From a virus (Duplodnaviria > Caudoviricetes): a DNA stretch of 64,000 bases. Below are positions 2,109 to 50,425 of this stretch, one piece after another (within the stretch, counting starts at the first letter, position 1; every line of letters starts with the position of its first letter). Made by a program: the position numbers and the translations under genes. The stretch spans positions 1 through 64,000 of the IMG/VR virus record IMGVR_UViG_3300027374_000478. One strand, written 5' to 3'. The notes under the pieces were generated by a model that saw only the letters and a list, made by a program, of their open reading frames with translations, did not search any database and was not told the DNA's origin.

Positions 2109-5100
2109 TTAACTCCTTTTCATATGATTTTAAATAATTATCTGCTTGTTCAATGTAATCAATTTCTGAACCATTATCAGACGATATTATTTCTTCTAAT
2201 CGTTCAAATGAATAATCAGCTTGTTTTGCTTTGATTTCCCAATCAAACTCCGTATTTGGAATACCTTTGACAATAAAATAGTTACATTCTTTTTGATAAA
2301 CATATATTTGGTCGTTAGAATATGATTGTAAAAATACACTATAATTTTGTATAGTATCAACTGTCTCTGAAAAAATGCAATCTATATCAATATAACAAAA
2401 TCCGTCATCACCAATAATTCCGTGTCCAATATCACCAAAATAGGGGCTTGTAGTTTCGTAACAATAAAGAAGCCTGTTATCATAAGAACGTGTGTTAATT
2501 ATGCGTGATTTAGAACCGCTTACATTTAAATCACCTTCTATATTTACGCCACCTCTTTGTGTGATTAGTTTAATAGTTCCTCTACCAGTAGTTGATATTT
2601 TGAAACCATCAGTATTAAATGTCATAATTGAAGATGTAAATAATGGATCATCTCCATAATATTGTGTTCCAATAAATACACCTTCGGTTGGATTAGAAGA
2701 CATGACCCATTTAAAATTATCACCATTTATTGAAACAGGAACACTAACGTTAAATGACTTTGTAAATTCTCCACTACTACCAGAAATATTTGTACCAGTA
2801 ATATTTCCACTAAATTTCCCGTTCTTTGCTTGAAGACTTCCATCTGATAGAATCTTAAAATTTTCGTTTGCTGTAACAAGACCTTCTAGTTTGATTTTTT
2901 CTGCTTTAATAGAAACTTCTTCATTACTCTTATTTATTTTATCAATAATTTTATAATCATCTAATTCAGTACCATCCCCCTTTAAATGCAACACCCCATT
3001 TTCGTCGACAGATAATATACTTCCATTCTTGTTTGATAGTGATAGCAATGTACTAGAATTAGGATTCACAATAAAAGTATTTTTGTCATTGGTTATCTTT
3101 AATCCATTCTTATCAAACGTAAGAGAATTATCGTCAGAATAAATACCAAGGTTTTCTCCTAGAATTAGATTTCCAATTAATGTTTCAGCATTAACGCCAT
3201 ATGTATATTTTAGTTCGTTTGTCGATGGTTCATAATAATAATATCCGCCAATAGCAGTTTTTACATTTTCCCAATTATCATTGGTAATGAGTATGGAATT
3301 ATTTAAAAAACGCATTTGTTCATCGTGATAAGAATCGGTTATTTCATCATATTTTCTTAACAGAAATCCATGTTCATCCCATGTTTGTGTTTGTCCATCA
3401 GAACCAGATAAGATTTTTGTTTTAGTTACATCAAGTCCATTTTGTACCCATTTGTTTACAACCTCTTGACTTTTTAAACCTTGTTCTGCTTGTCTTTGTA
3501 CATAATCATAAGATGATGTAATCGAACTTGCTTTATCGAAAATCGATTTAGAATCGCTTATACCACCAATAATTCTAAGAACATCTGAAAAATCAACAGT
3601 AGATAAGTTTGCCAAATTATCATAATCAATTTCATATTCAATTAACCTTAATTTATAAATCTTGTCATCTATTTGAACTCTTAACCAATTCCCTATTTCA
3701 AAATGGTCGTATAAAGGTTTGAATTTTTTGATTGCAAAAATATTTTTTAAGTTAGAAGAAATAGAATGTTGAAGAGTAGAAGACTTATATATTTCTTTAC
3801 TGGCAGTTTCAAGAAATTCTAGCGCTCTATTAAATAATTCTGTATTATTTAAACCGTCAGATATATAATTGCTATTAGAATACTTGTCTTCTCTGCGATA
3901 CGCATAAAAGTCTAACCACAATTCTTTTCCAAGATATTTTTCAAAATTAAGATTATCTTGGATTTGCTGTTTTTCTTCAATAATGTAAGTTTGTATTCCG
4001 TGTGAAATTACGTTATTATCGTTTGAAGCTCCAGTGATTGTCTCAACTTCATTTTCTCTTATAGCGATTTCAGATTGAATTGCATCTAATTTATTTCTAT
4101 ATGGGAGGTATAATTCATCGTATAAACTAGGGGTTTTATCTGCCCATGTTTCTCTGTTAGCAATTCCCTGTTCAATTAAAATATCAATACATGATTGACA
4201 TATATTGTAAAAAGAATTGAGGCTATCTAGGCAGTATTTTTTTAGTTCTTCACAGAAAAGATTGTGAGTCATTTTAAAAAGCCCAGATATGCTTAAATCA
4301 TGCGCTTCTTTGGATAATAATTTATCGATTTGCTGTTTTACATATTTCTCGTAATTATCATTAATTGTTACAGTAATATCAGAAGTTGTTGTAGTATCTT
4401 CTTCATCAGAATAGTTTGTGACAATAAAACTACCTTTCCATGTTAAATTTGACATGGAAGATGTGTTTATTTTTACTTGATATCTTGGATCGACTATAGA
4501 TTTTGCAAAGCTTAAGACTGCATTGTTAGCAGTAGAAATAGATATATATTTAATGTTTGAAACACTTATAGGAGACAAATTTTTAGATGTTAATAAATTG
4601 CCTTGTTCTTCTGCGCTAGTATCATTTAATTTGGCATCTGGCATTAATATAGACTTTAAATATAATGCTAAATCAATAGTATTGTAATATGCTGTCATTA
4701 GCCTGGGATATCCTATTATCGGTATATTGATTTGCTCTAAATTCTGGTTATATGCTTTGTATTTTAAAATGATATCATTATATTTTTTCAATAAAGCGTC
4801 ATCAATGGATATATGATGATTCTTTTGATAATAATCAAATAATTCATCATACTGATTTATCTTATTTACTAGCTCATCTGGCATAATTTCTTTCATATCG
4901 TCAGAAATGTACCAAATATAATCAGAACCGTTAGGATTACAGTTTCGTATTGTTGCTGTCATTAAATCGTCGCCTGCTTCTAGCTTAAAGCAATTATTTA
5001 CAGCAACAGTATCAGTTGTAAGTTTTAAATCATTAGCAATTTCATTCGATGTGATAAAAATAGAAGTATCTTCACCATATCCATCAGTTATATTGACACT

Positions 5101-9399: not shown

Positions 9400-9921
9400 T
9401 CAATCATTCGCTTTATATGACAAAGCTAAATTTTCCATATCTTTAAAATCAATACATCTTTTTGCCAAATCACTATCCGGTTTATCATATTTATTATTAT
9501 AAACTTTTAAAGCAACTTTATCTAAATCCATTGTATTAATAACTTTTAATTCTGTTCGCATTAAAGATATGTATTTACTTTTTTCTTTTTCATTCTTAAA
9601 TGTTCTATGTTTGTCTAAATCCTTATATTGTAATTTATTATATATATTTTTAGGAATTGGGAACATATAGTTTAAATTGATTACAGCAATTAATCTATTA
9701 CTTTTTGGATCAAAAATTTTCTTAAAATCCTCATTGGCTTTCATTTTAAAATGCTTTTGTTTAGGATGAGATACTTGTGTAACATAATAGAAGTCATCAG
9801 TTTCAAACAATACTCCAAAAAATGGCTTATATTTATTATTTCCATAATCTGATTTTGGTATTCTGTTTTCTTTACTCCTAAGATAATTCAAATAATTTTC
9901 ATCAATGACAAGCCATTCCAT
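9400..9921 (-). CDS. toxN: Type III toxin-antitoxin endoribonuclease ToxN/AbiQ family
   Basis: YLNYLR...KPFFGVLF...YYVTQVSHPK...INLNYMFPIP motifs; preceded by repeat array and terminator. Confidence 0.88.
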   Translation of the reverse strand: MEWLVIDENYLNYLRSKENRIPKSDYGNNKYKPFFGVLFETDDFYYVTQVSHPKQKHFKMKANEDFKKIFDPKSNRLIAVINLNYMFPIPKNIYNKLQYKDLDKHRTFKNEKEKSKYISLMRTELKVINTMDLDKVALKVYNNKYDKPDSDLAKRCIDFKDMENLALSYKAND

Positions 9922-10589: not shown

Positions 10590-13500
10590 ACCACTGTTGA
10601 TATTCTTTGATTCTATTTGCTAGTTTCTCGTTTTTGATGGTGCTGATATCAATCTTACCTTCTCTAACTTTCTTGGTCAGAGATTTCCATGTTGACTTTT
10701 TATAACCATCATCTTTAGCTTTCTTGAGTGCTGTTTTATTTACTTTCGCAGCTTCCTGTTTATACCGTTTAAAACCCTTCTGTTGTATGGTGATTTCTTT
10801 GTTTACCTTGGAAAGCTCACTCTTGAGATTTTTGTTTCTGTCAGACCATGCTTTGTATGCACTGCTTGCTTTTAAGTCTAAGCTGTCTATTGCGCGTTCG
10901 ACACGATTGATTGCTACCTCAATCCAATCAAAAGCTTCTTTTGCTTTCTTAGCATCTTTTGTGGCTTGTTTAGATTTTTTGTTTGAAGTATTTTTACTTT
11001 TTGGAGTTGTTTTCTTTGTGGTCTTCTTCTTAGTAGTAGATGAACTCGCAAAAAGTTTGCGTCCACCATTCCTCGATGCATAAGCTGTACCCTCTAAATG
11101 GGCTGTGCCGCTTAATCTTGCTGCACCTCTGGATGGAGTAAAACCGTTCTTAAGTAATTCTTTGGTCTGCTTTGCGTTAAAAACTACAGATCCAGCAGGA
11201 ATATGAGAGAACTCAGCTCCGTTATCACCCACTGTCCACCAGCGATTGCCATACACTACCATTTCTTGACCCAATTCACCTGTTAAAGCATCTTCGCTTT
11301 TTTTGGTTTTCCAATTTGGATTTAACCACGTTTCGTCATCAAGTGTTCCATGTGCAAGAGCGCGTCTGGACAATTTGGGAATTGGATATAATCCGCCCGT
11401 CTTTTTTGATACTTCTTTTTGGCTAAGTGGGAGAGTAGTAGAGGTTTTATCTTTAACTGTTCCTTCTTTGTGAGCGGTTCCGTTTAATTGAGCTGTTGTC
11501 TTTACAAAACTCTTACTACCACCAAACGTTTTTAATGCATTTTTGACTTTATTAACTGCATTTGATACTGTATCTGAAACAGTCGCACTAATAGTTATCT
11601 TCTTGTCTTTTACTCCTGCTAATGCGTTCTTAGCTGACGTAGCTTTTGGAGTAACACCATCAGTAGCAGTCATATTTGTTTTGGTCTTCTTGGGAACCTT
11701 CTTTGTCTCTTTAACTACTTTTTTAGCAAGCCCAGACACATCATCAGAAGCTAAAAATTTTGTGATCTTTTCTTTTGGTATTCCTGTTATCTGTGATAAA
11801 ACAGTAGCTAATACACCAGAAGCACCGTCACTGGCATTGATTTCAGTAATTTTTTCTTCTGGTATTCCGCTGATTTCAGAAAGTACCTTGATTGTTGCGT
11901 CACTGGCTTTGTCTTCAGCTAATAGTTCAGTTATGATTTCTTTCGGGATTCCGGTAGAAATGGAAATCATACTTTCGAGTGCTGATGTAGCTTCATCATT
12001 AACCTTTGCGTTGATTTCTATATCTTTTGGGTCGATATCCAATATGTCTGCTATATCTTCTTTTGCCAATCCAGTAGATTCTTTAATAGCCTCAAATGCT
12101 TTGTCGGCTTCTTTTGACTTTAAGAAACTATCCCAGTCAACGGCCTTATTATCAGAGTAAGCATCCTGGAAAGCGTTTTGCAAGTCATAAATAGCAGATA
12201 TCTGGTCTTGAATTTTCGCACGGGCATTTTCATCTTTAACATCGCCAAATTTTGATTGTAAATCCTTAACCTTCTGAGACGCATTGGCATATCCTTTGCT
12301 TATAGACTCATCGTATCCCGTTTCCTTTTCACGTTTGTCCCTATATTCAGATTTCTTAGCGTTCAGAGCTGCTTTTTGTGTATTGTCTCCTTCGCTTGCC
12401 AATCTCTGCAACTGGTCTATCTCTGACTGAATTTGAGCCATACTGTATTCAAACTCGATATGAACAATCTGGTCTTCTGAAAGAGAAGATAAATCATCCT
12501 GGTACTTAGCGTACTCTTCATCCCAATTATTGATAAGTCCGTCAAGACGTTCCTTTCCAGCTCCCTCGCCCATGGAATCACGGAGAGATTTGATATTATT
12601 CAGGGTATTCTCATACCTTGTAATACTTTCTCCACTAAATGTCACATCATCCCACTCAAATCCATAGGATTCAAGATTGCGCAACAATGTTTCCGTAGCT
12701 TCAAGACTCATCTTCATTTTTTCTGCTGCTTCAGCAGTATTGTCGAACGTTCCCGTAAGCCCAGTTTCGTCTTCCTTTAACAGTCCTTTATCAATCAATG
12801 CATTCTGGAAGTTTGCAGCACTTCTTTTTGGATTTTCAGCATCAAAGAATTTCTTATATAGCTTTTCTGCGTCTTTGTATTTCTTTTCATAGACATCAGC
12901 AACATATTCAAGGTCGTCATTCTTTTTGAGTTCCTTTTTTACGCTGAATTTAGGGAGTACCCATTCAATAGACTTCTGTAGGTCGTCGGTTCCCCATTTA
13001 TCCTGTTTTGCAAGCTCTCTAGCCTGTGTAGCGTAATCGGCAAATTTTTTCCAGTCAGCATCTTTGTTTTCAGATTTAAAAGCTTCATCTACGTCTGACA
13101 GGGTAGTACCAAGTATACTAGCTTTTTCTTTTGCTTGTTCTGCTGAGTTTGCAACATTCTGGAAGTATTTGATGAAATTATCTTGTGACACTCCGATATC
13201 ATCAAGAGAAAGTCCCAGTTCTTTGAACTTACGGAGCGCATCTTCTGCATTTCCACTTTCGGCAACGATGTTGTTAAGATAATCTCCGATGGCATTTCCA
13301 GCAGTGGAAGAGAAGAAGGAGTCTAAGGATTTGAGTTCTTTTTCGGCGGGAAGCAACCCCATATTCCCGATTGCGTCATATGCAGATTTTACTTCGTTAA
13401 ATTCATCTTCAAATCCTTTTAACGCATCTAATCCTTCGCCATTTACAGAAACCGCTGACAATAATTTATCCAGGTCAACTTCTTTGCTATCTAAATCTTC

Positions 13501-14286
13501 TGTTAGTTTTTCGATTGCCGTATTATAGCTTTCAATATCTTTTTCTGACTGTTTCCATTCTTTTGATTTTGGATCAAGTTCAGACATAGATTTTTCTAAG
13601 TTGGAAATTTTATTTTCGTAATCTTCAATAGCAGCAATATTTTCTTTGACAGCAGTAGCAACATTAACATTACTGACCGTTCCCTGATAAGTCTTTTTGC
13701 CACCAGGAACTTGCTGTGCCACTTGTTGTGCTACAGATTGTTTCCCTCTATTTAATGCGTCTTTTGCATTGTAAGCAGCATCCTTTTGTTGAGATAAAGA
13801 TAATCTTTCTTTTATAGAAAGCTGAGATTCAAGTTTGCTGTTTGTTTCGGAAATTTTGTCAATTTCAACCTGATCTATTAATTGGATTTTTCCACTTTCG
13901 TTTAATTTTCCAATTTTCTCATCAATAGAGTCAATGCCACTTAAATCTACATTATATTTTTCTCCCAAAGATGAGAGGGTAGATTTGTATTCTTCTGCTT
14001 GAGATTTTAAGTTTTCTACCTCAGATTTTGTGCTATTTAGTCCATCTAAATGCTCTGATGTGTTTTTTATCGCAGAATCATAGGACAAGTTATACGCATC
14101 GGACAGTGCTTGTATTGCTTTGTACATTGCATAGGTTGTTCCAATGGTCGTTATTGCTTGACCTTTGAATGTGGACATAAAAGAACCTATACTTTTCCCA
14201 AGAGCATTAAAAGTTAATGATAGTGCGCTTTTGGTTCCTAATCCACTCTGAAAAATTGTAAATAGTTCAAATACTCTTTTAAACTG
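10590..14286 (-). CDS. Tape measure protein, exon 2
   Basis: ORF 10588..14178 stays open 36 codons upstream to CAG at 14286 (QFKRVFELF...); helical TMP repeats, ALTGELGQEMV and FDWIEV motifs. Confidence 0.88.
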
Positions 14287-14317
14287 CTATGAAGTAATGA
14301 TTATTTTTAAAAATTTG

Positions 14318-14346
14318 TTGGATAAATCTAAAAATAATGTTACAAT
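14318..14346 (+). promoter_or_regulatory. Putative sigma-A promoter of zinc-ribbon cargo gene
   Basis: TTGGAT-17-TACAAT with TG extension. Confidence 0.55.
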
Positions 14347-14363
14347 AAATCAGAGGTGATTTT

Positions 14364-14744
14364 ATGAATAGGTGTCCAAAATGTAATAAACAATTTTCTG
14401 TGGAAGTGAAGTTTTGCCCAATTTGCGGATACGAAAGTAATAATCAACAAAACGATACAGAATTTTATATTTGTCCTCAATGTCATATTGAGTATTCATA
14501 TAAAATAGACCACTGTACTAATTGTGGATATTGCACATCAAACTATAAAAATAAAATAAGAGATATTAATAATGAAAGCTTAAAGAAAGCAACAATTAAT
14601 ATTCCCATGTGTCCTACTTGTCAATCAACTAATATTCGAAAAATATCAGGAACTAAAAAGGTGACATCGATTATTGGGTTTGGAATATTGAGCGATAATA
14701 TTGGGAAAACTTTCGAGTGCTTAAATTGTAAATATAAGTGGTAA
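14364..14744 (+). CDS. Multi zinc-ribbon protein (intron cargo)
   Basis: Six CxxC pairs; C-terminal CPTCQSTNIRKIS...FECLNCKYKW. Confidence 0.75.
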   Translation: MNRCPKCNKQFSVEVKFCPICGYESNNQQNDTEFYICPQCHIEYSYKIDHCTNCGYCTSNYKNKIRDINNESLKKATINIPMCPTCQSTNIRKISGTKKVTSIIGFGILSDNIGKTFECLNCKYKW

Positions 14745-15094
14745 GATGAAATAAATCATGTTAAATAATGAAAACCAAACAAAGATCAAAAGGCTTTTGT
14801 TAAAAATAATTAAATTACCACAAATTATACATTCTTTCTTTACGAATGATGATTCTAAATCATACGTGATAATACGCAATTGTTATATTACTTTTTGTGA
14901 TTTTCATGTTAAAAGATAAAAGATGTTTTATTTATAAACTCGCATGATTTAGAATGTTTGGTAATAAATGATGTATTAGAATATAAAGTGAAATTATAGA
15001 AAACATATTCTGAATCCACAATCATCACTAATATTGTTGGATTATATGATAAAATGTGGTATTATAAGGAAAATATATATGTAGGTGAAGAGTA

Positions 15095-15649
15095 ATGGCA
15101 TTAGTAATTTGTCCAGAATGTAATAAACAAATGAGTCAATATGCAAAAAGCTGCCTTAACTGTGGATTTCCGATTCAAAAATTTATGAATGATAATAATA
15201 TGAATGATGAAACTAAAGCTTTTGTATGTCCAAAATGTGCAGATACTTATAAAATTAAAGGTGTTATATTTTTAAAGTGTGAATTTTGTAATACAACATT
15301 AGTCCAAACAGACATGAGTATCAAAGAGTTATTTCGATTTTCATGTAATAGTACAGATGAAGAATTTGAGTCTAAAGCAATTGAGTTAGCTAAAAAGTAC
15401 GGAGACAATCAATTTGATGAAAATGCTTATAATGAAACCAAACTTAAAAAGAAACAGCGTAATCTGAGCATGAGTTCATCGAATATAAATCAATCTCAAC
15501 AAGAAAATACACCCAAATGTCCTCTATGTGGATCGACTGCAATTACGGATGGTCAAAGAGGATATGCTTTGCTCACAGGATTCTTAGGAAGTAATAAAAC
15601 AGTAAATAGGTGTATTAACTGTGGATATAGTTGGAAACCTGGAAAATAA
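15095..15649 (+). CDS. Multi zinc-ribbon protein (intron cargo)
   Basis: MALVICPEC... and CPLCGS...CINCGYSW; promoter TTGGAT-17-TATTAT at 15037-15065. Confidence 0.75.
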   Translation: MALVICPECNKQMSQYAKSCLNCGFPIQKFMNDNNMNDETKAFVCPKCADTYKIKGVIFLKCEFCNTTLVQTDMSIKELFRFSCNSTDEEFESKAIELAKKYGDNQFDENAYNETKLKKKQRNLSMSSSNINQSQQENTPKCPLCGSTAITDGQRGYALLTGFLGSNKTVNRCINCGYSWKPGK

Positions 15650-15879
15650 AGTATCATGTCTTATCACAATAAAAAAATAATGATGTTTTACCATTAATGT
15701 GTATAATTTAACTTTGATGTTAATGGAAATATGTTGACCATTAACTATTTATGATTTGTTGGATATTCATTTATGCTTGATAATTTTCAAAATAAACATA
15801 TGTTTAATCTTAACAAATTGATGTGCATGTGATAGAATAATTTTATTATGTAACAATTACAAAAGATGGAGTATATAAT

Positions 15880-16338
15880 ATGTCAGATGCACAAAGCTAT
15901 ATTCAGTGGCTTAATAAAAAATTAAAATTAAATAATTATTCAGTTCAGAATAATGCCCAATTAATGAATTGGAAAATAAATAGAGGACAAATTTACACAT
16001 GCTTTCTTGGCGAAAATATTGGATTTGAAAAAAGTAGGATGGCAGCAAGACCATGTGTAATTATATCAACACAACGTATTAATCATGAAAGTGGTAATGT
16101 GATTGTAATTCCACTTTCAAAAAATATAAAATATGTACGTAGTACAAATAAATTAAAATATCCTTATCACTTTGTTTTAAAAAGATCCAAATATCCTAAA
16201 CTTCAATTTGATTCTGTCGTACAATGTGAAGATATACGTTGCGTGTCTAAAGCCAGGTTGTCGAAATATATTTGCAATGTCAAACCCGATGACATGAAAG
16301 ACATTAGGAAGAGATTGAAAAATGCTTTACAAATATGA
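15880..16338 (+). CDS. MazF/PemK-family endoribonuclease toxin, no adjacent protein antitoxin (intron cargo)
   Basis: RGQIY..LGENIGFE...RPCVIIS...VIVIPLS...DSVVQCEDIRCVSKARL. Confidence 0.88.
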   Translation: MSDAQSYIQWLNKKLKLNNYSVQNNAQLMNWKINRGQIYTCFLGENIGFEKSRMAARPCVIISTQRINHESGNVIVIPLSKNIKYVRSTNKLKYPYHFVLKRSKYPKLQFDSVVQCEDIRCVSKARLSKYICNVKPDDMKDIRKRLKNALQI

Positions 16339-16360
16339 CATATTATGGTATGATTAAAAC

Positions 16361-16546
16361 GTATAGAATATATTTGCTTACCTTATAGCCTACGAGATGC
16401 GTATTTATAATTTCCACTCTTATACATATAATTCTCGTGCGTTATTTGTTCGTAGGCCATTCGTTTAAAATTGTTTGAGAGTCCAAGTGATTCTCGCCGA
16501 AGTGATTATATGAAGAAAGGTAGGTTTAAGCCTATCTTTTTTCATA
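16361..16546 (+). ncRNA. Candidate sRNA downstream of mazF/pemK
   Basis: Own promoter TTTACA-17-TATGAT (16326-16354); stems GCCUACGA/UCGUAGGC and GAGAGUC/GAUUCUC; ends in hairpin 16508-16546. Confidence 0.55.
16508..16546. terminator. Probable bidirectional intrinsic terminator
   Basis: ATATGAAGAAAGGTAGGT-TTAA-GCCTATCTTTTTTCATAT between convergent genes. Confidence 0.7.
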
Positions 16547-16654
16547 TTCATACATAGCGGATGGACTGCGAAGCTTGTAATATAGAAGGTATATCATTAA
16601 ATAAGACTTACTGGTTATAGCATTTAGCTCTGCAATAACAGCAAAAATCAGAGC

Positions 16655-17947
16655 CTAGAATTGGCCCTGATCCTCAATTTCTTTACACAATTTTTCATAA
16701 TCATCATCGCCACTTAAAATATCTTCGGCAGTAAGCAATGTATCATACGCATGAGTAATTCCCTCTTCTTCATCATTTTCAAGATAATCCCTAGCTTCTT
16801 CCAATATTTCTGATTTATATTTTGAATATGCATTTGAATAATCAGTTTTAAATTCCTTTTTGTAAGAAGATTCATTTAAGTAATCGATGATATCTCTCCA
16901 TGCTTCCTTCTCTTCGAAATCTGAAATCTTATCAGATACAATGGTTTTATCTATTTTTTTAGATTGTTCGTCTATTTTATCATCATTACCGATTTTCTTT
17001 TTTAGCTCTGATAAAACTTTTTTAGCGGAATCATATTCCCTATCTTCCAAATAATCATTACTATCTGAAATTGCGTTGTTTATCATTTCGCTTTTTGCAT
17101 TTTTTAAAGTTGAAATATTGTCATTTTTCAAAGTTTCTTTTAACGAATTTATGTATTTATACAGTCCGTACCAATCTTCTTTATCCTTGTAAACAGATAT
17201 TTTATAAGAAACTTCTTTTTCATCTATATTTCTTGATTGTTCTGATATTTTTTTATCTTTCCCAACCAACTTTTTTGCTGAACTTAAAATTTTTCTTGCG
17301 CCATCGTACTCATGGCTCTCAATTTTTTGATTTGAATCTGATACCATATCAGACAAATAAGTATCTTTCGCCTGTGAATATATTTCCGATACTGTTTTAT
17401 CATTACCAAATACATCTTCATTAGAGTTAATATAGGCAATAACATCTTTTGGATCAGTTGTTTCAGTTAAAGAATATAATTCTTCACGTGCAGACACATA
17501 TGCTTGTTTATCCAAAAGCGTTTCGTTTTCAGGTAATTCTTTAAGTCCTTCCCTAATTAAACTCCTGGCTTTATTATAATTATTATTTTCAACTTCACTA
17601 TCTGTTTCAGTTACGATGTAAGACAAATATTGTTTTTTTGCAGATTCCAATAATTGCTCTTTATCGTCAACAACTCTGGAATCATCACTAATGCTCTCAT
17701 AATAACCTATAGCACTTAAATATTTACCTTCATTAATTGCATCATCCCCATTAGATTTTGCTTCTAAATCAGCATTATCTCGTTTTTCTTCTTCTGTAAG
17801 ATGTCTTTGAGATTCATATTTTTTTGGAAAAAAATCTAAATGTTCAATATTTACCGCAGTAAAACTGCCAAAGGCTATTAAACTGCCTATTAAAGTGATA
17901 GCAATTAAACCAGATAAAGGAAAGTTATTTTTGTTGTTATCGTTCAT
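16655..17947 (-). CDS. Membrane-anchored helical-repeat protein (intron cargo)
   Basis: N-terminal TM segment, repeated YDxAxKxL helical units, GGAGG RBS. Confidence 0.65.
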   Translation of the reverse strand: MNDNNKNNFPLSGLIAITLIGSLIAFGSFTAVNIEHLDFFPKKYESQRHLTEEEKRDNADLEAKSNGDDAINEGKYLSAIGYYESISDDSRVVDDKEQLLESAKKQYLSYIVTETDSEVENNNYNKARSLIREGLKELPENETLLDKQAYVSAREELYSLTETTDPKDVIAYINSNEDVFGNDKTVSEIYSQAKDTYLSDMVSDSNQKIESHEYDGARKILSSAKKLVGKDKKISEQSRNIDEKEVSYKISVYKDKEDWYGLYKYINSLKETLKNDNISTLKNAKSEMINNAISDSNDYLEDREYDSAKKVLSELKKKIGNDDKIDEQSKKIDKTIVSDKISDFEEKEAWRDIIDYLNESSYKKEFKTDYSNAYSKYKSEILEEARDYLENDEEEGITHAYDTLLTAEDILSGDDDYEKLCKEIEDQGQF

Positions 17948-18482
17948 AATTGCACCTCCTAGAAATATTTTTATATATTATAAACGTTTCTAGCCTAAAT
18001 GCAAGTATTAATCGAAAATTATTTGGACAAAAATAAAAAATATTTCTTGATATCATAACAGGTATATTTTACATCATATCTGGTCAGTTTATTGTATTTT
18101 TTATCTCTATTAAAAAATTATAATTTTATATCAAAACAATTCATTTCAAACAATAATCTTCTTTTTTCTTTTAAATCTACGTCTGCGTAATTCTAAGCTA
18201 TACCCGCCCCTCATTGAATACTCACCAATACTATCTTGTAGATTCTTGTCATCCGGCACACTCAAATCCCTTGCAGCAAACGTATCTATAGTGCGTTTCT
18301 TGATAATTCTATGCCCATTAGATTTTTTACTCCTTTAATACAAATTATTTCATCCCTACCCATTTCTTGACTCTATCCACCAATTTCTTATTCACAGACT
18401 GGTAGGTGATTTCGATTCTATCAAAATTTCAAACAAATGTTTAGACTATTATTATATTCCAAGAAGTGATAAAATTAATTTC

Positions 18483-18570
18483 GTAAGAAGTCGCATTGTG
18501 CAACTGCGACTGTTGCACTCTTACATAGTAACTATTAATTGTAGCCGTACAAAATGTAAGAAGGTACGGT
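18483..18570 (+). ncRNA. Structured leader with two pseudoknots / alternative pairings
   Basis: AGUCGCA/UGCGACU with loop GUGCAAC/GUUGCAC; UCUUACAU/AUGUAAGA with CCGUAC/GUACGG. Confidence 0.55.
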
Positions 18571-20311: not shown

Positions 20312-21040
20312 TTATAAAATATCTTTAAAACCGATTATTTTTTCAAGATCGTCTCTTGCATGATATAATTTTTGATAAAATATATCTCCAAGTCCAAAAA
20401 AGCCTTTATTAAACTTGATTTTTCGAATCAATAAAGACGGTGACATGTCTGAAATTTGAAGTCCAATACAGTTATCTTCCTTATATATGAATCCTAACGA
20501 AGATAAATGTTGTTGAATGATTGTTGAAGAATTATATAAAGATCCTCTTGTTATATAGTCATAGTAGGAATTTTGCAAATATGAATTTTCTTTTAAGGTT
20601 CTTGATTCTATACAAATTTGCCCAATTGCGTTTTTATTACGTAAAAAATGAACAATATTATCCAACAGAGAAATAAAAGCAATATCATAACTATTGTATG
20701 AAGTTTTTAAATACAATGAAGTCATGATTGATTGCTCAAAATATACACCTATGGATGTAAAATTAAGAGTTTTTAATATGTTTTCATATTCTATCCAAAA
20801 GCTTACACGTAATTCACTATCTTCTTGAAATATTTTAAATTTATTTTTACTTTTTTTCATATCAGTAAAATGAAAAATAATATCTGTAGACTGAAAATAT
20901 TTTCTTTTTAAAGTAACAATATCAGGTATTGCTTTTGTTACATATTCATCTTTTGAAATTATTATTCCTGACATGCAAAAATATGGATTTTGATTTTTTA
21001 CAGGTTTTGTTTCGTCAAGAAAAATTAAATATTCATCCAA
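20312..21040 (-). CDS. DUF3800-family protein (intron cargo)
   Basis: N-terminal IFLDET, FHFTDM, C-terminal GLQISD motif. Confidence 0.8.
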   Translation of the reverse strand: MDEYLIFLDETKPVKNQNPYFCMSGIIISKDEYVTKAIPDIVTLKRKYFQSTDIIFHFTDMKKSKNKFKIFQEDSELRVSFWIEYENILKTLNFTSIGVYFEQSIMTSLYLKTSYNSYDIAFISLLDNIVHFLRNKNAIGQICIESRTLKENSYLQNSYYDYITRGSLYNSSTIIQQHLSSLGFIYKEDNCIGLQISDMSPSLLIRKIKFNKGFFGLGDIFYQKLYHARDDLEKIIGFKDIL

Positions 21041-21704
21041 AATAGCTTCCTCCTTAGTACAAATACTATTGAGTATTATACAATAGAGTTCACTATATTT
21101 CTATAAAATCAAAATAAATAAATGCAATCGGATTAATTAAATACCCCTGTCAAGACCAAACAGCATTAAGGACACACTTCTTAAAAAGCGATCCGAAGAT
21201 TATATTGGTTAACGACTCTTAACATAGCCGTCCTATCATCGCACGAGATAGAAGACCGTTCCAACATTAAGGATTGCGAATCCTAGTGGATTACCACCAT
21301 TTTGTTATTTTACCTTGGACTATACATTATAAGCAAATACAATAAGGTCTGTATTTACTCAGAGGATCGGTAGTCTCTGAACATCCCCCTATATCATAAT
21401 GATATATTGGTGTGCTGCTGATTAGTTAATCGGTTGCAATAACAACATACAACCTTTGCCCTTATTCTAGGTACTTAGGAGCATCGTCCCGATGCCTTTT
21501 ATTTCACCTTATACCATCTCATTAATTTTTTCTGCTTTCGCTGCATATCACGCTTACCATTTTCAGATTACGTTGTAGCTTAATGAGCATTAGGCTTCCC
21601 AGTCAAGTTACTCCTCCAGTTTTAGAACATGACACCACACAATTGTACATGATACCATATTTGTCATTTCCTTTTGTGTAGATTAGACCAGTTTAATAAA
21701 ACAA

Positions 21705-23609
21705 ATCTAGGTTCCTGAATAATTTAATACCGCCAATAGTGGCGAATAGTGTAGGTAATGCGCCTCCGACATCTATAATTTTTGTTAATACATTTAAAAA
21801 TTCTGATCCTGTATCAATCGCACCTTTTAAGAAGTCAGAATTAAATGCAACATTTGAAAATTCTTGGAACTGACTGCGGAACTGCTGGATTTTTGCTTCC
21901 ATACTTTGCATCCATCGGTCTTGTTCCTTTTGAGCTGAACCTTCAGCATTTAAAGTCGCTTCATAAGCTTTTTGTATTTGTCCGGATTTAAAAGCCTGTA
22001 AAATAGCGGCACCTTGATTACCTCTGTTTTTACCGAACATGGTTTCAAGCAAATCAGCTTGTTCTGTTTGTTCCAAATTGTCATATACTTTTGAAACGTC
22101 TTCTAATATATCATAGTAATCTCTAAACTTAGTTGAATCAGCAGAATCCATTATGTTGACTTGACCCTTTGTGAGATTTAAAATGTGCGTTTGAATTTTG
22201 CTGACAGATTCTAAGCCGTCCGATTCTTCGCCTAGAGCTTCCAGATCGCCCTTCATACCTTGAATGCGCATCTGTCCAATTTTTAAAGCATTACCAAGTT
22301 CTCCAGCAGATTGTGTGATTTCTGATCCGCCCGTTAATAAAGCTAACGCCTTGTTTAAATCAGTTCCACCTAAAGATAGCATGGATGCAGCATGTGACAT
22401 TCCTTCGCCCAAATCTTTAGCTGATGTCGCAAATTCATTTCCAAGTTTATTATATTTATCTACAATAGACAAAGCATTATCATAACTAATGTCATAAGCT
22501 TTCATGACAGTTACTAAGTCACTTACAGCGGTTTTGTCATCGACTTCGCCAACATTAGAATAAATAGAGCTTATTTTGGAAAGTCTTGCACTTTGCTCCA
22601 TAGTGTAGCCAAGTTTTGCCCATTCGCTAGTTTGCGTTATATATGATGACATGTCTCGTCCGATTGACTTAGAGATATTTCCGGCATTATTCAGAAAATC
22701 ATTATATTTAGATGTGGTTTCATCTGTAACCTTATACAAATTGGTCATAGCAGTATCAACACTTAACACTTCATTTGCCATTTGTTTCAATACATAGGGT
22801 ATTCTCTGGATAGCCCCATAAGTAAGTGCAAATTGCCCAATCTGTTTAAATCCACGATTCATTTCTGCAAAAAAACTTTTCCCATTCAATCCCTGGGAAG
22901 AAATAGTAGATTTTAAGTTTTTGAATTCATTGTCAAGTTTAGCTTTATCGGCAACAGTTGTAGCTTGTCTATATCGATTTTCTAAATCTTTTAATTCTAT
23001 TCCGTATTTTTTAACAGCTTTAGAATTATCTTCATAATATTTCTTTACTGCATTTGCCGAACGTTCTGCCACTCCGATATCAAGTGTTTTTGACCCTGTG
23101 TTACGGATTTGTGTCATTATATTATCAAATCTTTCTGCGGCCAGCGTCATATCATTAAAAGAATTTACAAACTCTTTATTATCAAGTTTAAATGAATTGT
23201 TAGAATCAAAATGTGCTTTTATCTTACTGAGTGTAGAATTGTATGCTTCAGCTTCTTTTCTGGCGGCTTTTACTAAATCAGAATCCTGTCCACTATATCC
23301 AGAAAGCTTATTTTTCATGACAGATGATTTTGCGTCATAAGCCCCATTTAAAATTTTATGTTGAGCATTAGAAATTATTTTTGAATACATTTCGGCTTGT
23401 TTTGTTGAAGACCTTATAGAATTATTGGCGGCGTTTTGTATTTGTCTTCCTATATTATCAACATTAAGATTCCTAAAACCTTTGTCATCAAATTTTATCT
23501 TAATTGTTTTATTATTAAGACTATTGATTTTATTTTCTATTTGTGTTAATTTTTCAAAACCTAGTAGTTTGGCGTGTATGTTAACATTATAATCTGCCAA
23601 AACATTCAC
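21705..23609 (-). CDS. Tape measure protein, exon 1 (TP901-type core)
   Basis: VDTAMTNLYKVTD...EWAKLGY...LGNEFAT...GNALK; ends FRNLD at the 5' splice site; start may be TTG 23600. Confidence 0.92.
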
Positions 23610-34730: not shown

Positions 34731-34908
34731 ATTTCCGATACCTCCTTTATAATTAGTGCGAGTTGGACATATGCCCAAAACCAACCCACGGTATCCCATT
34801 TATATAAAATCAGGAAGAGGGCAGTGGGTATCTGCTTTTCGTGAGCGACACTATCTTCCTGATTTTAAGCATAAAAATAGACAGTGTCTTTTCTAATATC
34901 CAAAAGGA

Positions 34909-46202: not shown

Positions 46203-46286
46203 TGGGCAGAAGAGGACTCGAACCTCTGATGTTTCTTGTGTGCCTGATTTACAGTCAGGTGCAGTCGCCGCTATGCATATCTACCC
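46203..46286 (-). tRNA. tRNA-Tyr(GTA)
   Basis: GGGUAGA/UCUGCCC, CCUGA-CUGUAAA-UCAGG, GGUUCGAGUCC. Confidence 0.85.
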
Positions 46287-50352: not shown

Positions 50353-50425
50353 TGTGCCTATTGGGATTTGAACCCAAAACCTATCGGTTAAAAGCCGATT
50401 ACTCTACCAATTGAGTTATAGACAC
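50353..50425 (-). tRNA. tRNA-Lys(TTT)
   Basis: GUGUCUA/UAGGCAC, AUCGG-CUUUUAA-CCGAU, GGUUCAAAUCC. Confidence 0.85.

What the first reader, a model, noticed from the sequence alone, without database searches (positions are those of the whole stretch)
15880..16546. Solo MazF/PemK toxin followed by its own promoter-driven structured sRNA: candidate RNA antitoxin
SEEN: no MazE-like ORF upstream. A TTTACA-17-TATGAT promoter overlaps the stop codon and would give a ~185-nt RNA with stems and a repeated AAGUGAUU, ending at a terminator. KNOWN: ToxN shares the MazF/Kid fold and is inhibited by RNA; a pemK-associated RNA motif has been described computationally (recalled, not verified against this sequence). 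INFERENCE: a type III-like pair with reversed gene order.
Basis: partly seen in the sequence, partly recalled or inferred. Interest (0 to 1): 0.7.

Follow-up and report, generated by a model that had tools for sequence, protein, structure and literature searches.

The report
MazF-type toxin with partner small RNA
A prophage gene for a MazF-type RNA-cutting toxin has no protein antidote but is always followed by its own conserved, folded small RNA gene, which is most likely the antidote; I found no published description of such a pairing for MazF toxins.

Summary
The ORF at 15880-16338 is a true MazF/PemK toxin by Pfam and fold, keeps the catalytic Arg and Ser/Thr, and has an extra N-terminal helix.

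A promoter overlaps its stop codon. It would drive an RNA of about 185 nt (about 16361-16546) that ends at a terminator. This RNA is a member of a family not in Rfam.

- A model built from 28 distinct copies finds one copy, on the toxin's strand, directly after the toxin in 80 of 86 related loci. Four of the other six end too early or are gene fragments; the last two carry divergent copies.
- Both conserved helices covary: all 11 pairs show double changes, and 92% of cells are paired against 31-46% when the partners are slid.
- The promoter keeps its position in 19 of 28 loci and is replaced by a separate consensus promoter in most others.
- No neighbouring protein is conserved. The zinc-ribbon genes recur in only 4 of 28 loci.
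- The repeated 8-mer is real in the window but not conserved.

Best reading (about 50%): a type III-like RNA antitoxin, with reversed gene order and no repeat array. It is not a member of ToxIN, CptIN or TenpIN. Function is inferred, not shown. Earlier agents of this scan reported the same theme in other MazF clades on other DNA.

The parts
15810..15838 (+). Predicted promoter of the toxin gene (-35 at 15810-15815, -10 at 15833-15838 with an upstream TG)
   Evidence: Consensus scan, 10 of 12 matches with TG. Most relatives listed carry an extended -10 box within about 45 nt of the start codon.
15880..16338 (+). MazF/PemK-family toxin gene, 152 aa. Residues 4-28 form an added N-terminal helix; the MazF core is about residues 33-152.
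   Evidence: Pfam PF02452. PDB profile hits to S. aureus and B. subtilis MazF, E about 1e-13. AlphaFold model pLDDT 82. Foldseek hits to MazF structures, TM 0.83-0.86 on the target length. R57 is invariant and S80 aligns with the catalytic Thr.
16326..16354 (+). Promoter of the small RNA; its -35 hexamer lies in the last codons of the toxin gene
   Evidence: Same position and 17-nt spacer in 19 of 28 distinct relatives; most others have a separate consensus promoter just downstream.
16360..16546 (+). Small structured RNA gene: predicted start near 16361, model match 16360-16520, terminator to about 16546
   Evidence: Covariance model R1: 67.3 bits, E 6e-8, the only copy in the 159-kb record. 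Fold z = -5.1.
16376..16381 (+). Helix P1, 5' strand (pairs with 16452-16457)
   Evidence: All 6 pairs show double compensatory changes on a sequence-only alignment. RNAalifold predicts the same helix on the window's own subclade.
16382..16446 (+). Variable insert P2 enclosed by P1
   Evidence: Length and sequence differ between loci. The window and L001 have an alternative pairing, 16385-16395 with 16450-16460, that relatives lack.
16447..16451 (+). Conserved unpaired UGYUC element directly 5' of the P1 3' strand
   Evidence: Its U and C are invariant and its G nearly invariant across the 28 distinct RNAs.
16452..16457 (+). Helix P1, 3' strand
16458..16475 (+). Conserved A/U-rich single-stranded linker between P1 and P3
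   Evidence: Sequence is conserved without pairing partners.
16476..16496 (+). Hairpin P3 (16476-16483 pairs with 16489-16496)
   Evidence: All 5 counted pairs covary. RNAalifold gives 8 pairs in the subclade.
16497..16515 (+). 3' single-stranded tail with a conserved U/A-rich element
16516..16546 (+). Intrinsic terminator shared by the small RNA and, by read-through, the toxin mRNA
   Evidence: Hairpin plus T-run. A terminator follows the RNA in most relatives. No terminator lies between the toxin stop codon and the RNA.

Best explanation
The stretch from about 15810 to 16546 is a self-contained cassette of about 740 bp, carried as a moron by a large prophage. It encodes a MazF-type endoribonuclease toxin and a dedicated small RNA of about 185 nt that is the toxin's antidote.

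The toxin gene has its own promoter and no terminator of its own. Each toxin mRNA therefore runs through the RNA element to the shared terminator. A second promoter, overlapping the stop codon, makes extra free RNA.

The RNA has a three-part fold:
- helix P1, which encloses a variable insert;
- a hairpin, P3;
- conserved U/A-rich single strands and a UGYUC bulge.

I infer that the conserved single strands bind the RNA-binding groove of the toxin dimer, and that the basic N-terminal helix adds binding surface, so that the nuclease stays blocked. If transcription stops, for example when another phage infects or the prophage is lost, the RNA would decay and the toxin would be freed, as in type III systems.

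Shown here: the toxin's family and fold, the retained catalytic residues, the RNA's structure, promoter and terminator, the strict one-to-one linkage, and the lack of a conserved protein partner. Inferred: binding, inhibition, lability of the RNA, and a defence or addiction role.
For: - Toxin identity. Catalytic Arg57 is invariant and Ser/Thr80 aligns with the catalytic Thr of the S. aureus and B. subtilis MazF proteins.
- RNA structure: on a MAFFT alignment made from sequence alone, all 11 pairs have compensatory double changes, 92% of cells are paired against 31-46% when slid, and 0 of 500 shuffles reach the score. The model-based alignment agrees, as does RNAalifold on the window's subclade.
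- Linkage: nhmmer finds 74 hits and the covariance model 80 of 86 loci, each with one hit on the toxin's strand directly after the toxin. Of the six misses, four are contig ends or gene fragments and two hold divergent copies that were aligned by eye.
- Copy number: one copy in the window's record. One copy, next to the toxin, in 4 of 5 host genomes. Found in only 1 of 151 sampled genomes of the same family, namely the source genome itself.
- Promoter: its position is kept in 19 of 28 loci and it is replaced by a new consensus promoter in most others.
- No conserved neighbouring protein: the largest neighbour family covers 4 of 28 loci. No longer, fused form was found.
- No conserved small ORF lies in the RNA.
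- More distant MazF-like clades carry different conserved elements in the same downstream position. This shows the toxin-then-RNA layout is selected for across the wider family.
- A canonical ToxN gene lies 6 kb away in the same island.
Against: - No expression data and no toxicity or rescue data exist.
- Known type III antitoxins are tandem repeats placed upstream of the toxin and processed by it. Here there is one unit, downstream, and no repeats.
- The added N-terminal helix could itself regulate the toxin.
- Strict linkage would equally fit an RNA that controls toxin synthesis, or one that serves as a cofactor.
- The RNA is also the 3' UTR of the toxin mRNA, so a cis role cannot be separated from a trans role by sequence alone.
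Confidence: 0.5

Rival explanations
1. The RNA controls how much toxin is made rather than blocking the protein. As the 3' UTR and as a free small RNA, it would set the stability or translation of the toxin mRNA. It might do this by being bound or cut by the toxin (autoregulation) or by pairing with the mRNA.
For: The toxin mRNA must read through the element, because no terminator lies between them. In the most distant clade the conserved element abuts the stop codon and I saw no promoter, which suggests a co-transcribed 3' UTR element there.
Against: The dedicated promoter is conserved, and is rebuilt where lost, which argues for a free trans-acting RNA. Cognate RNA and 5' UTR pairs form no better duplexes than non-cognate pairs (p = 0.96). 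A nuclease toxin with intact catalytic residues still needs something to hold it in check.
Confidence: 0.2
2. The RNA is a cofactor, guide, decoy or sensor. The toxin and RNA would form a working ribonucleoprotein whose activity or target choice depends on the RNA, or whose disruption by a phage factor is the trigger. It would not be a plain antidote.
For: The RNA is larger and more elaborate than needed for a simple groove blocker: it has a three-part fold and an optional conserved insert module. DUF3800-linked relatives form three-part modules. DUF3800-associated terminated RNAs are described as functionally unexplained (PMC5737381).
Against: Nothing in the sequence points to guide-like variable segments. 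The variable part (P2) is enclosed in a helix and is not obviously complementary to anything tested.
Confidence: 0.12
3. A protein does the neutralising after all. It could be the added N-terminal helix acting in cis, as a fused antitoxin remnant, or an unlinked MazE-like protein of the host or phage. The RNA would then be a passenger element with another role.
For: The N-terminal 30 residues are conserved (W10 is invariant) and form a long helix. There is a weak PHROG hit of residues 9-80 to a family labelled 'antitoxin mazE-like' (E 2.9e-4).
Against: This would not explain the one-to-one linkage, the covariation and the retained promoter of the RNA over toxin divergence down to about 40% identity. 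No conserved neighbouring protein exists.
Confidence: 0.08
4. The downstream structure is only a terminator region or a chance fold, with no function of its own.
For: Promoter-like hexamers are common in this A+T-rich DNA.
Against: Covariation in two helices, conserved single-stranded blocks, and detection by a model in 80 loci.
Confidence: 0.02

Closest known systems
Type III toxin-antitoxin systems (ToxIN/AbiQ, CptIN, TenpIN)
   Same: An endoribonuclease toxin of the wider Kid/MazF-like fold class is paired with a non-coding RNA encoded beside it. There is no protein antitoxin. The systems are carried on phages or mobile elements. Both genes share one terminator, and extra RNA is made relative to the toxin message. 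A genuine ToxN gene sits in the same island.
   Different: Here the toxin is PF02452 (MazF/PemK), not ToxN, CptN or TenpN. The RNA is a single structured unit of about 185 nt with its own promoter, placed after the toxin. It is not an array of short tandem repeats before the toxin with an attenuating terminator between them. Binding and processing are untested.
Type II MazEF / PemIK (Kis-Kid) systems
   Same: Toxin family, fold and catalytic residues are the same. The closest solved relatives are S. aureus MazF and B. subtilis EndoA.
   Different: There is no MazE/PemI gene, here or in relatives. The toxin has an added N-terminal helix of about 30 residues and a family-specific conserved loop motif. 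A conserved RNA gene stands where no partner is expected.
DUF3800-associated RNA motifs, drum and skipping-rope (Weinberg et al. 2017, PMC5737381)
   Same: These are structured RNAs followed by intrinsic terminators that associate with one nearby protein family, not with 5' UTRs, and have no known function. Distant relatives of this toxin sit between a DUF3800 gene and a conserved downstream RNA.
   Different: No Rfam family, these included so far as Rfam holds them, matches the window's RNA or the relatives' RNAs. In the window the DUF3800 gene is 4 kb away on the other strand.
pemK RNA motif (Rfam)
   Different: No match at E up to 10 in 14000-18500 or at E up to 1 in eight related loci. As I recall it, that motif lies upstream of genes, not downstream.

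Membership tests
MazF/PemK toxin family (PF02452) | Profile match above the curated threshold | tested here: met
   73.8 bits against a cut-off of 23.1, E 1.6e-20, covering profile positions 2-108 of 109.
MazF/PemK toxin family (PF02452) | MazF/Kid SH3-like barrel fold | tested here: met
   AlphaFold model pLDDT 82. Foldseek best hits are S. aureus and B. subtilis MazF, E about 1e-11, TM 0.83-0.86 on the target length.
MazF/PemK toxin family (PF02452) | Catalytic Arg and Thr/Ser (Arg25 and Thr48 in B. subtilis MazF numbering, which I give from memory) | tested here: met
   R57 is invariant in 20 homologues. Position 80 is Ser or Thr and aligns with the Thr of the AAIT segment of S. aureus MazF.
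Type II MazEF/PemIK system | Adjacent, usually upstream, MazE/PemI-type protein antitoxin gene | tested here: not met
   No such ORF lies upstream. No neighbour family is shared by more than 4 of 28 loci.
Type III TA (ToxIN, CptIN, TenpIN) | Toxin belongs to the ToxN, CptN or TenpN families | tested here: not met
   The toxin is PF02452. The window's real ToxN (PF13958) is a different gene at 9403-9921.
Type III TA (ToxIN, CptIN, TenpIN) | Antitoxin gene is an array of short tandem repeats upstream of the toxin, separated from it by a terminator | tested here: not met
   No tandem array in 15600-16700. The RNA is a single unit downstream with its own promoter.
Type III TA (ToxIN, CptIN, TenpIN) | RNA binds the toxin protein directly and inhibits it, and the toxin processes the RNA | not testable with these tools
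   This needs co-expression, co-purification and nuclease assays. The complex predictor offered here takes no RNA chains.
Type I TA | Antisense or base-pairing RNA acting on the mRNA of a small hydrophobic toxin | tested here: not met
   The RNA is co-directional and overlaps the gene only at its promoter. Cognate duplex energies are no better than non-cognate ones. The toxin is a 152-aa soluble nuclease.
Rfam families (pemK, DUF3800 motifs, ToxI and others) | Covariance-model score at or near the gathering threshold | tested here: not met
   Nothing relevant at E up to 10 in the window, at E up to 1 in eight relatives, or at the gathering threshold over the whole window.
New RNA family defined here (model R1) | P1 and P3 helices, conserved single strands, and position directly after an N-extended MazF gene | tested here: met
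   Window match 16360-16520, 67.3 bits, E about 1e-7. The window's own sequence was in the seed alignment. Five independent subclade members support the same helices.

The most novel reading that the evidence does not exclude
N-terminally extended MazF/PemK toxins form a broad, undescribed class of toxin-antitoxin modules. In each clade the antidote would be a dedicated structured small RNA encoded just after the toxin, and at least three different RNA classes would serve different toxin clades. Some modules add a DUF3800 protein. If so, this could also give a function to the long-unexplained DUF3800-associated terminated RNA motifs. MazF, the textbook type II toxin, would then also be a major RNA-neutralised toxin of phages and prophages.
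Probability: 0.4. Interest if true: 0.85.

Novelty: new variant of a known kind. Interest (0 to 1): 0.72.

Why it matters
MazF is the model type II toxin and is thought of as always paired with a MazE-type protein. A clade that has swapped the protein antidote for a structured RNA would blur the line between type II and type III systems. It would add a new RNA family with a testable protein partner. It would also explain many 'orphan' MazF genes in phage and gut-bacterial genomes.

The cassette is small (about 740 bp) and self-contained, so it is easy to test. The link to DUF3800 modules offers a way into a set of conserved RNAs whose function has been open since 2017. If it acts as an abortive-infection module, it adds a defence system that current defence catalogues do not detect: PADLOC gave no hit.

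Tried and rejected
- **Rfam.** No relevant family matched in the window or in 22 related loci. The pemK-motif lead is rejected.
- **The repeated 8-mer as a functional repeat.** Rejected because it is not conserved in the closest relatives.
- **Zinc-ribbon neighbours as antitoxin.** Rejected as a conserved partner: they recur in 4 of 28 loci.
- **A small protein encoded in the RNA region.** No ORF is conserved across the family. A 16-18 aa minus-strand ORF occurs only in one subgroup.
- **Antisense pairing of the RNA with the toxin 5' region.** Cognate pairs are no better than non-cognate pairs.
- **A UACAU site (the B. subtilis/S. aureus MazF cleavage motif, from memory) as a built-in substrate.** It is present in the P2 insert of 5 of 6 RNAs of the window's subclade but almost absent from the rest of the family. 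I treat it as a weak lead only.
- **Cultured phage records.** No DNA match, and only relatives below 35% protein identity.
- **Longer, fused forms of the toxin.** None found, which is weak evidence.
- **First MAFFT alignments.** These put the window's RNA out of register. Adding five subclade members fixed this. It also showed that the conserved P1 uses 16376-16381, not the window-specific complement at 16385-16395.
- **Literature.** Seven full-text searches found no paper that pairs a PemK/MazF toxin with an RNA antitoxin. One preprint on mining non-coding elements could not be opened; the index shows no mention of MazF in it.
- **Motif-first search.** That question was addressed only with the model, on 157 genomes.

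Full report
**What is at the coordinates.**
The ORF at 15880-16338 (+) encodes 152 aa and matches Pfam PemK_toxin well above threshold. A profile of it and 19 homologues hits the solved S. aureus and B. subtilis MazF proteins at E about 1e-13. An AlphaFold model (pLDDT 82) superposes on those structures with TM 0.83-0.86 on the target length.

The model adds one long N-terminal helix (residues 4-28) to the MazF barrel. Arg57 is invariant. Position 80 is Ser or Thr and aligns with the catalytic Thr of the Gram-positive MazF proteins (the residue roles are from my memory of the B. subtilis MazF-RNA structure paper). The protein therefore looks like an active endoribonuclease.

Two zinc-ribbon genes lie upstream and a 430-aa helical-repeat gene converges from downstream. 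None is MazE-like.

**The downstream element in the window.**
The hexamers TTTACA (16326-16331) and TATGAT (16349-16354) are 17 nt apart, with a TG before the second. The first hexamer lies in the last sense codons of the toxin gene.

The stretch folds much better than shuffled copies (z = -5.1). There is no tandem array and no Rfam match even at E = 10.

**Comparative evidence.**
A protein search found 75 related clusters. I fetched 117 loci from species genomes, IMG/VR, metagenomes and single look-ups.

Reading the DNA after each stop codon showed the same layout almost everywhere:
- a promoter at or just after the stop codon;
- a U/A-rich leader;
- a 6-bp helix (P1) enclosing an insert of variable length;
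- a conserved UGYUC bulge;
- a conserved A/U-rich linker;
- a hairpin (P3);
- a U/A-rich tail;
- a terminator.

On a MAFFT alignment of 28 distinct copies, made from sequence alone, all 11 pairs of P1 and P3 show double compensatory changes. 92% of cells are paired, against 31-46% when the 3' partners are slid by 1-3 columns, and no shuffle out of 500 reaches the observed covariation.

RNAalifold, run only on the window's own subclade (toxins 64-91% identical to the window's), predicts the same P1, P3 and terminator. This subclade also showed that the conserved P1 in the window is 16376-16381 with 16452-16457. A second, perfect complement at 16385-16395 is private to the window and its nearest relative.

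**Linkage.**
A sequence-only HMM built without the window finds the element in 74 loci. The covariance model R1 finds it in 80 of 86 loci. In every case there is one hit, on the toxin's strand, directly after the toxin.

The six misses are:
- three contig ends;
- one gene fragment;
- two divergent copies that I had placed in the seed alignment by eye.

The model finds a single copy in the window's 159-kb provirus record. It finds a single copy beside the toxin in 4 of 5 host genomes. Among 151 sampled genomes of the same family as the nearest host, only the source genome has it. The cassette is therefore rare, sporadic and mobile.

**Promoter behaviour.**
In 19 of 28 distinct loci the -35 hexamer starts 12 nt before the end of the stop codon, with a 17-nt spacer and a good -10 box. 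In most of the others a separate TTGACA-like, 16-17 nt, TATAAT-like promoter lies 10-20 nt after the stop. A promoter that is kept, and rebuilt elsewhere when lost, argues for a free RNA and not only a 3' UTR.

The toxin has its own promoter close upstream: an extended -10 box in most relatives and 15810-15838 in the window. No terminator separates toxin and RNA, so the toxin mRNA also carries the element.

**No protein partner.**
I clustered all ORFs of 35 aa or more within about 1.3 kb of the 28 cassettes. The largest family, the zinc-ribbon proteins, covers 4 loci. No conserved small ORF lies inside the RNA, and no longer fused form was found.

**Mechanism.**
The pattern of covarying helices plus invariant single strands is what protein-bound RNAs show. 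Pairing with the toxin's 5' region is not supported. I therefore favour direct binding and inhibition of the toxin, type III-like, at about 50%.

The rivals are:
- control of toxin synthesis through the shared 3' UTR;
- a cofactor or sensor role;
- a cis-acting N-terminal helix.

None can be excluded without experiments.

**Wider family.**
More distant relatives (31-40% identity) sit directly after a DUF3800 gene. PF12686 scores above its cut-off in 3 of 5 tested, and one of the other two aligns to the window's DUF3800 protein at E 8e-12. These relatives are followed by a different promoter-driven RNA with a conserved hairpin of about 21 nt and a terminator.

Still more distant relatives (27-29% identity) have another conserved pair of hairpins abutting the stop codon. 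I inspected this group by eye only.

A profile search of 1.84 billion representatives gives 23 clusters at E up to 1e-30 and 574 at E up to 1e-10. Many of them match from the N-terminal helix onward.

Weinberg et al. (PMC5737381) described eleven DUF3800-associated RNA motifs, several with terminators, and had no functional hypothesis. None of the Rfam models matches the RNAs seen here.

**Context.**
The window belongs to a 159-kb provirus record. The nearest relative of the cassette is in a Lachnospiraceae genome.

The cassette lies in an island between two tape-measure-like ORFs. The same island holds a ToxN gene and a DUF3800 gene. Related cassettes also lie next to tape-measure genes.

**Earlier notes of this scan.**
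Earlier agents reported the same theme, a MazF-like toxin with a conserved small RNA partner, in at least eight other genomes and other clades. I did not test those reports. They did not change my scores.

**Verdict.**
This is a new RNA family and a new variant of RNA-partnered toxin module. Its function is inferred.

Noticed in passing
window 9403-9921 (-): A canonical ToxN toxin gene (PF13958, E 2e-42) lies 6 kb from the MazF cassette in the same island. I did not examine its RNA repeats.
   Followed up: partly
window 20315-21040 (-); L083, L085, L088, L090-L093, L095: The window has a DUF3800 gene (PF12686). In distant relatives of the toxin, a DUF3800 gene sits directly upstream of the MazF-like gene. 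A second, different promoter-driven RNA with a conserved hairpin of about 21 nt follows the toxin. Together these form a three-part module.
   Followed up: partly
L098-L107 (for example L103 1888-1950, L107 1825-1900): The most distant MazF-like relatives (27-29% identity, 126-141 aa) have another conserved element directly after the stop codon: a hairpin, a second short hairpin and a conserved A/U-rich stretch. I saw no obvious promoter. Inspected by eye only.
   Followed up: no
window 10591-14178 (-) and 21696-23609 (-); L108, L109, L111: Two tape-measure-like ORFs flank the 7.5-kb island that holds the cassette. Related cassettes also sit next to PhageMin_Tail genes on the other strand.
   Followed up: partly
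L027 about 3505-3545; also L017, L021, L040, L051-L053, L066, L073: About half of the RNAs carry a strongly conserved module of about 35 nt inside the otherwise variable P2 insert. The window's RNA lacks it.
   Followed up: no
window 14364-14744 (+) and 15095-15649 (+): Two paralogous multi-zinc-ribbon proteins (phrog_2546, unknown function) lie upstream of the toxin. Similar proteins recur near only 4 of 28 cassettes.
   Followed up: partly
window 34797-34861 (-), 46203-46286 (-), 50353-50425 (-): Rfam at the gathering threshold finds an int-alpA small RNA and two tRNA genes elsewhere in the window.
   Followed up: no
window 16420-16432 and 16505-16517: The apical part of P2, which contains UACAU, is 85% complementary to the 3' tail. 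This could form a pseudoknot. It is not clearly conserved in relatives.
   Followed up: partly
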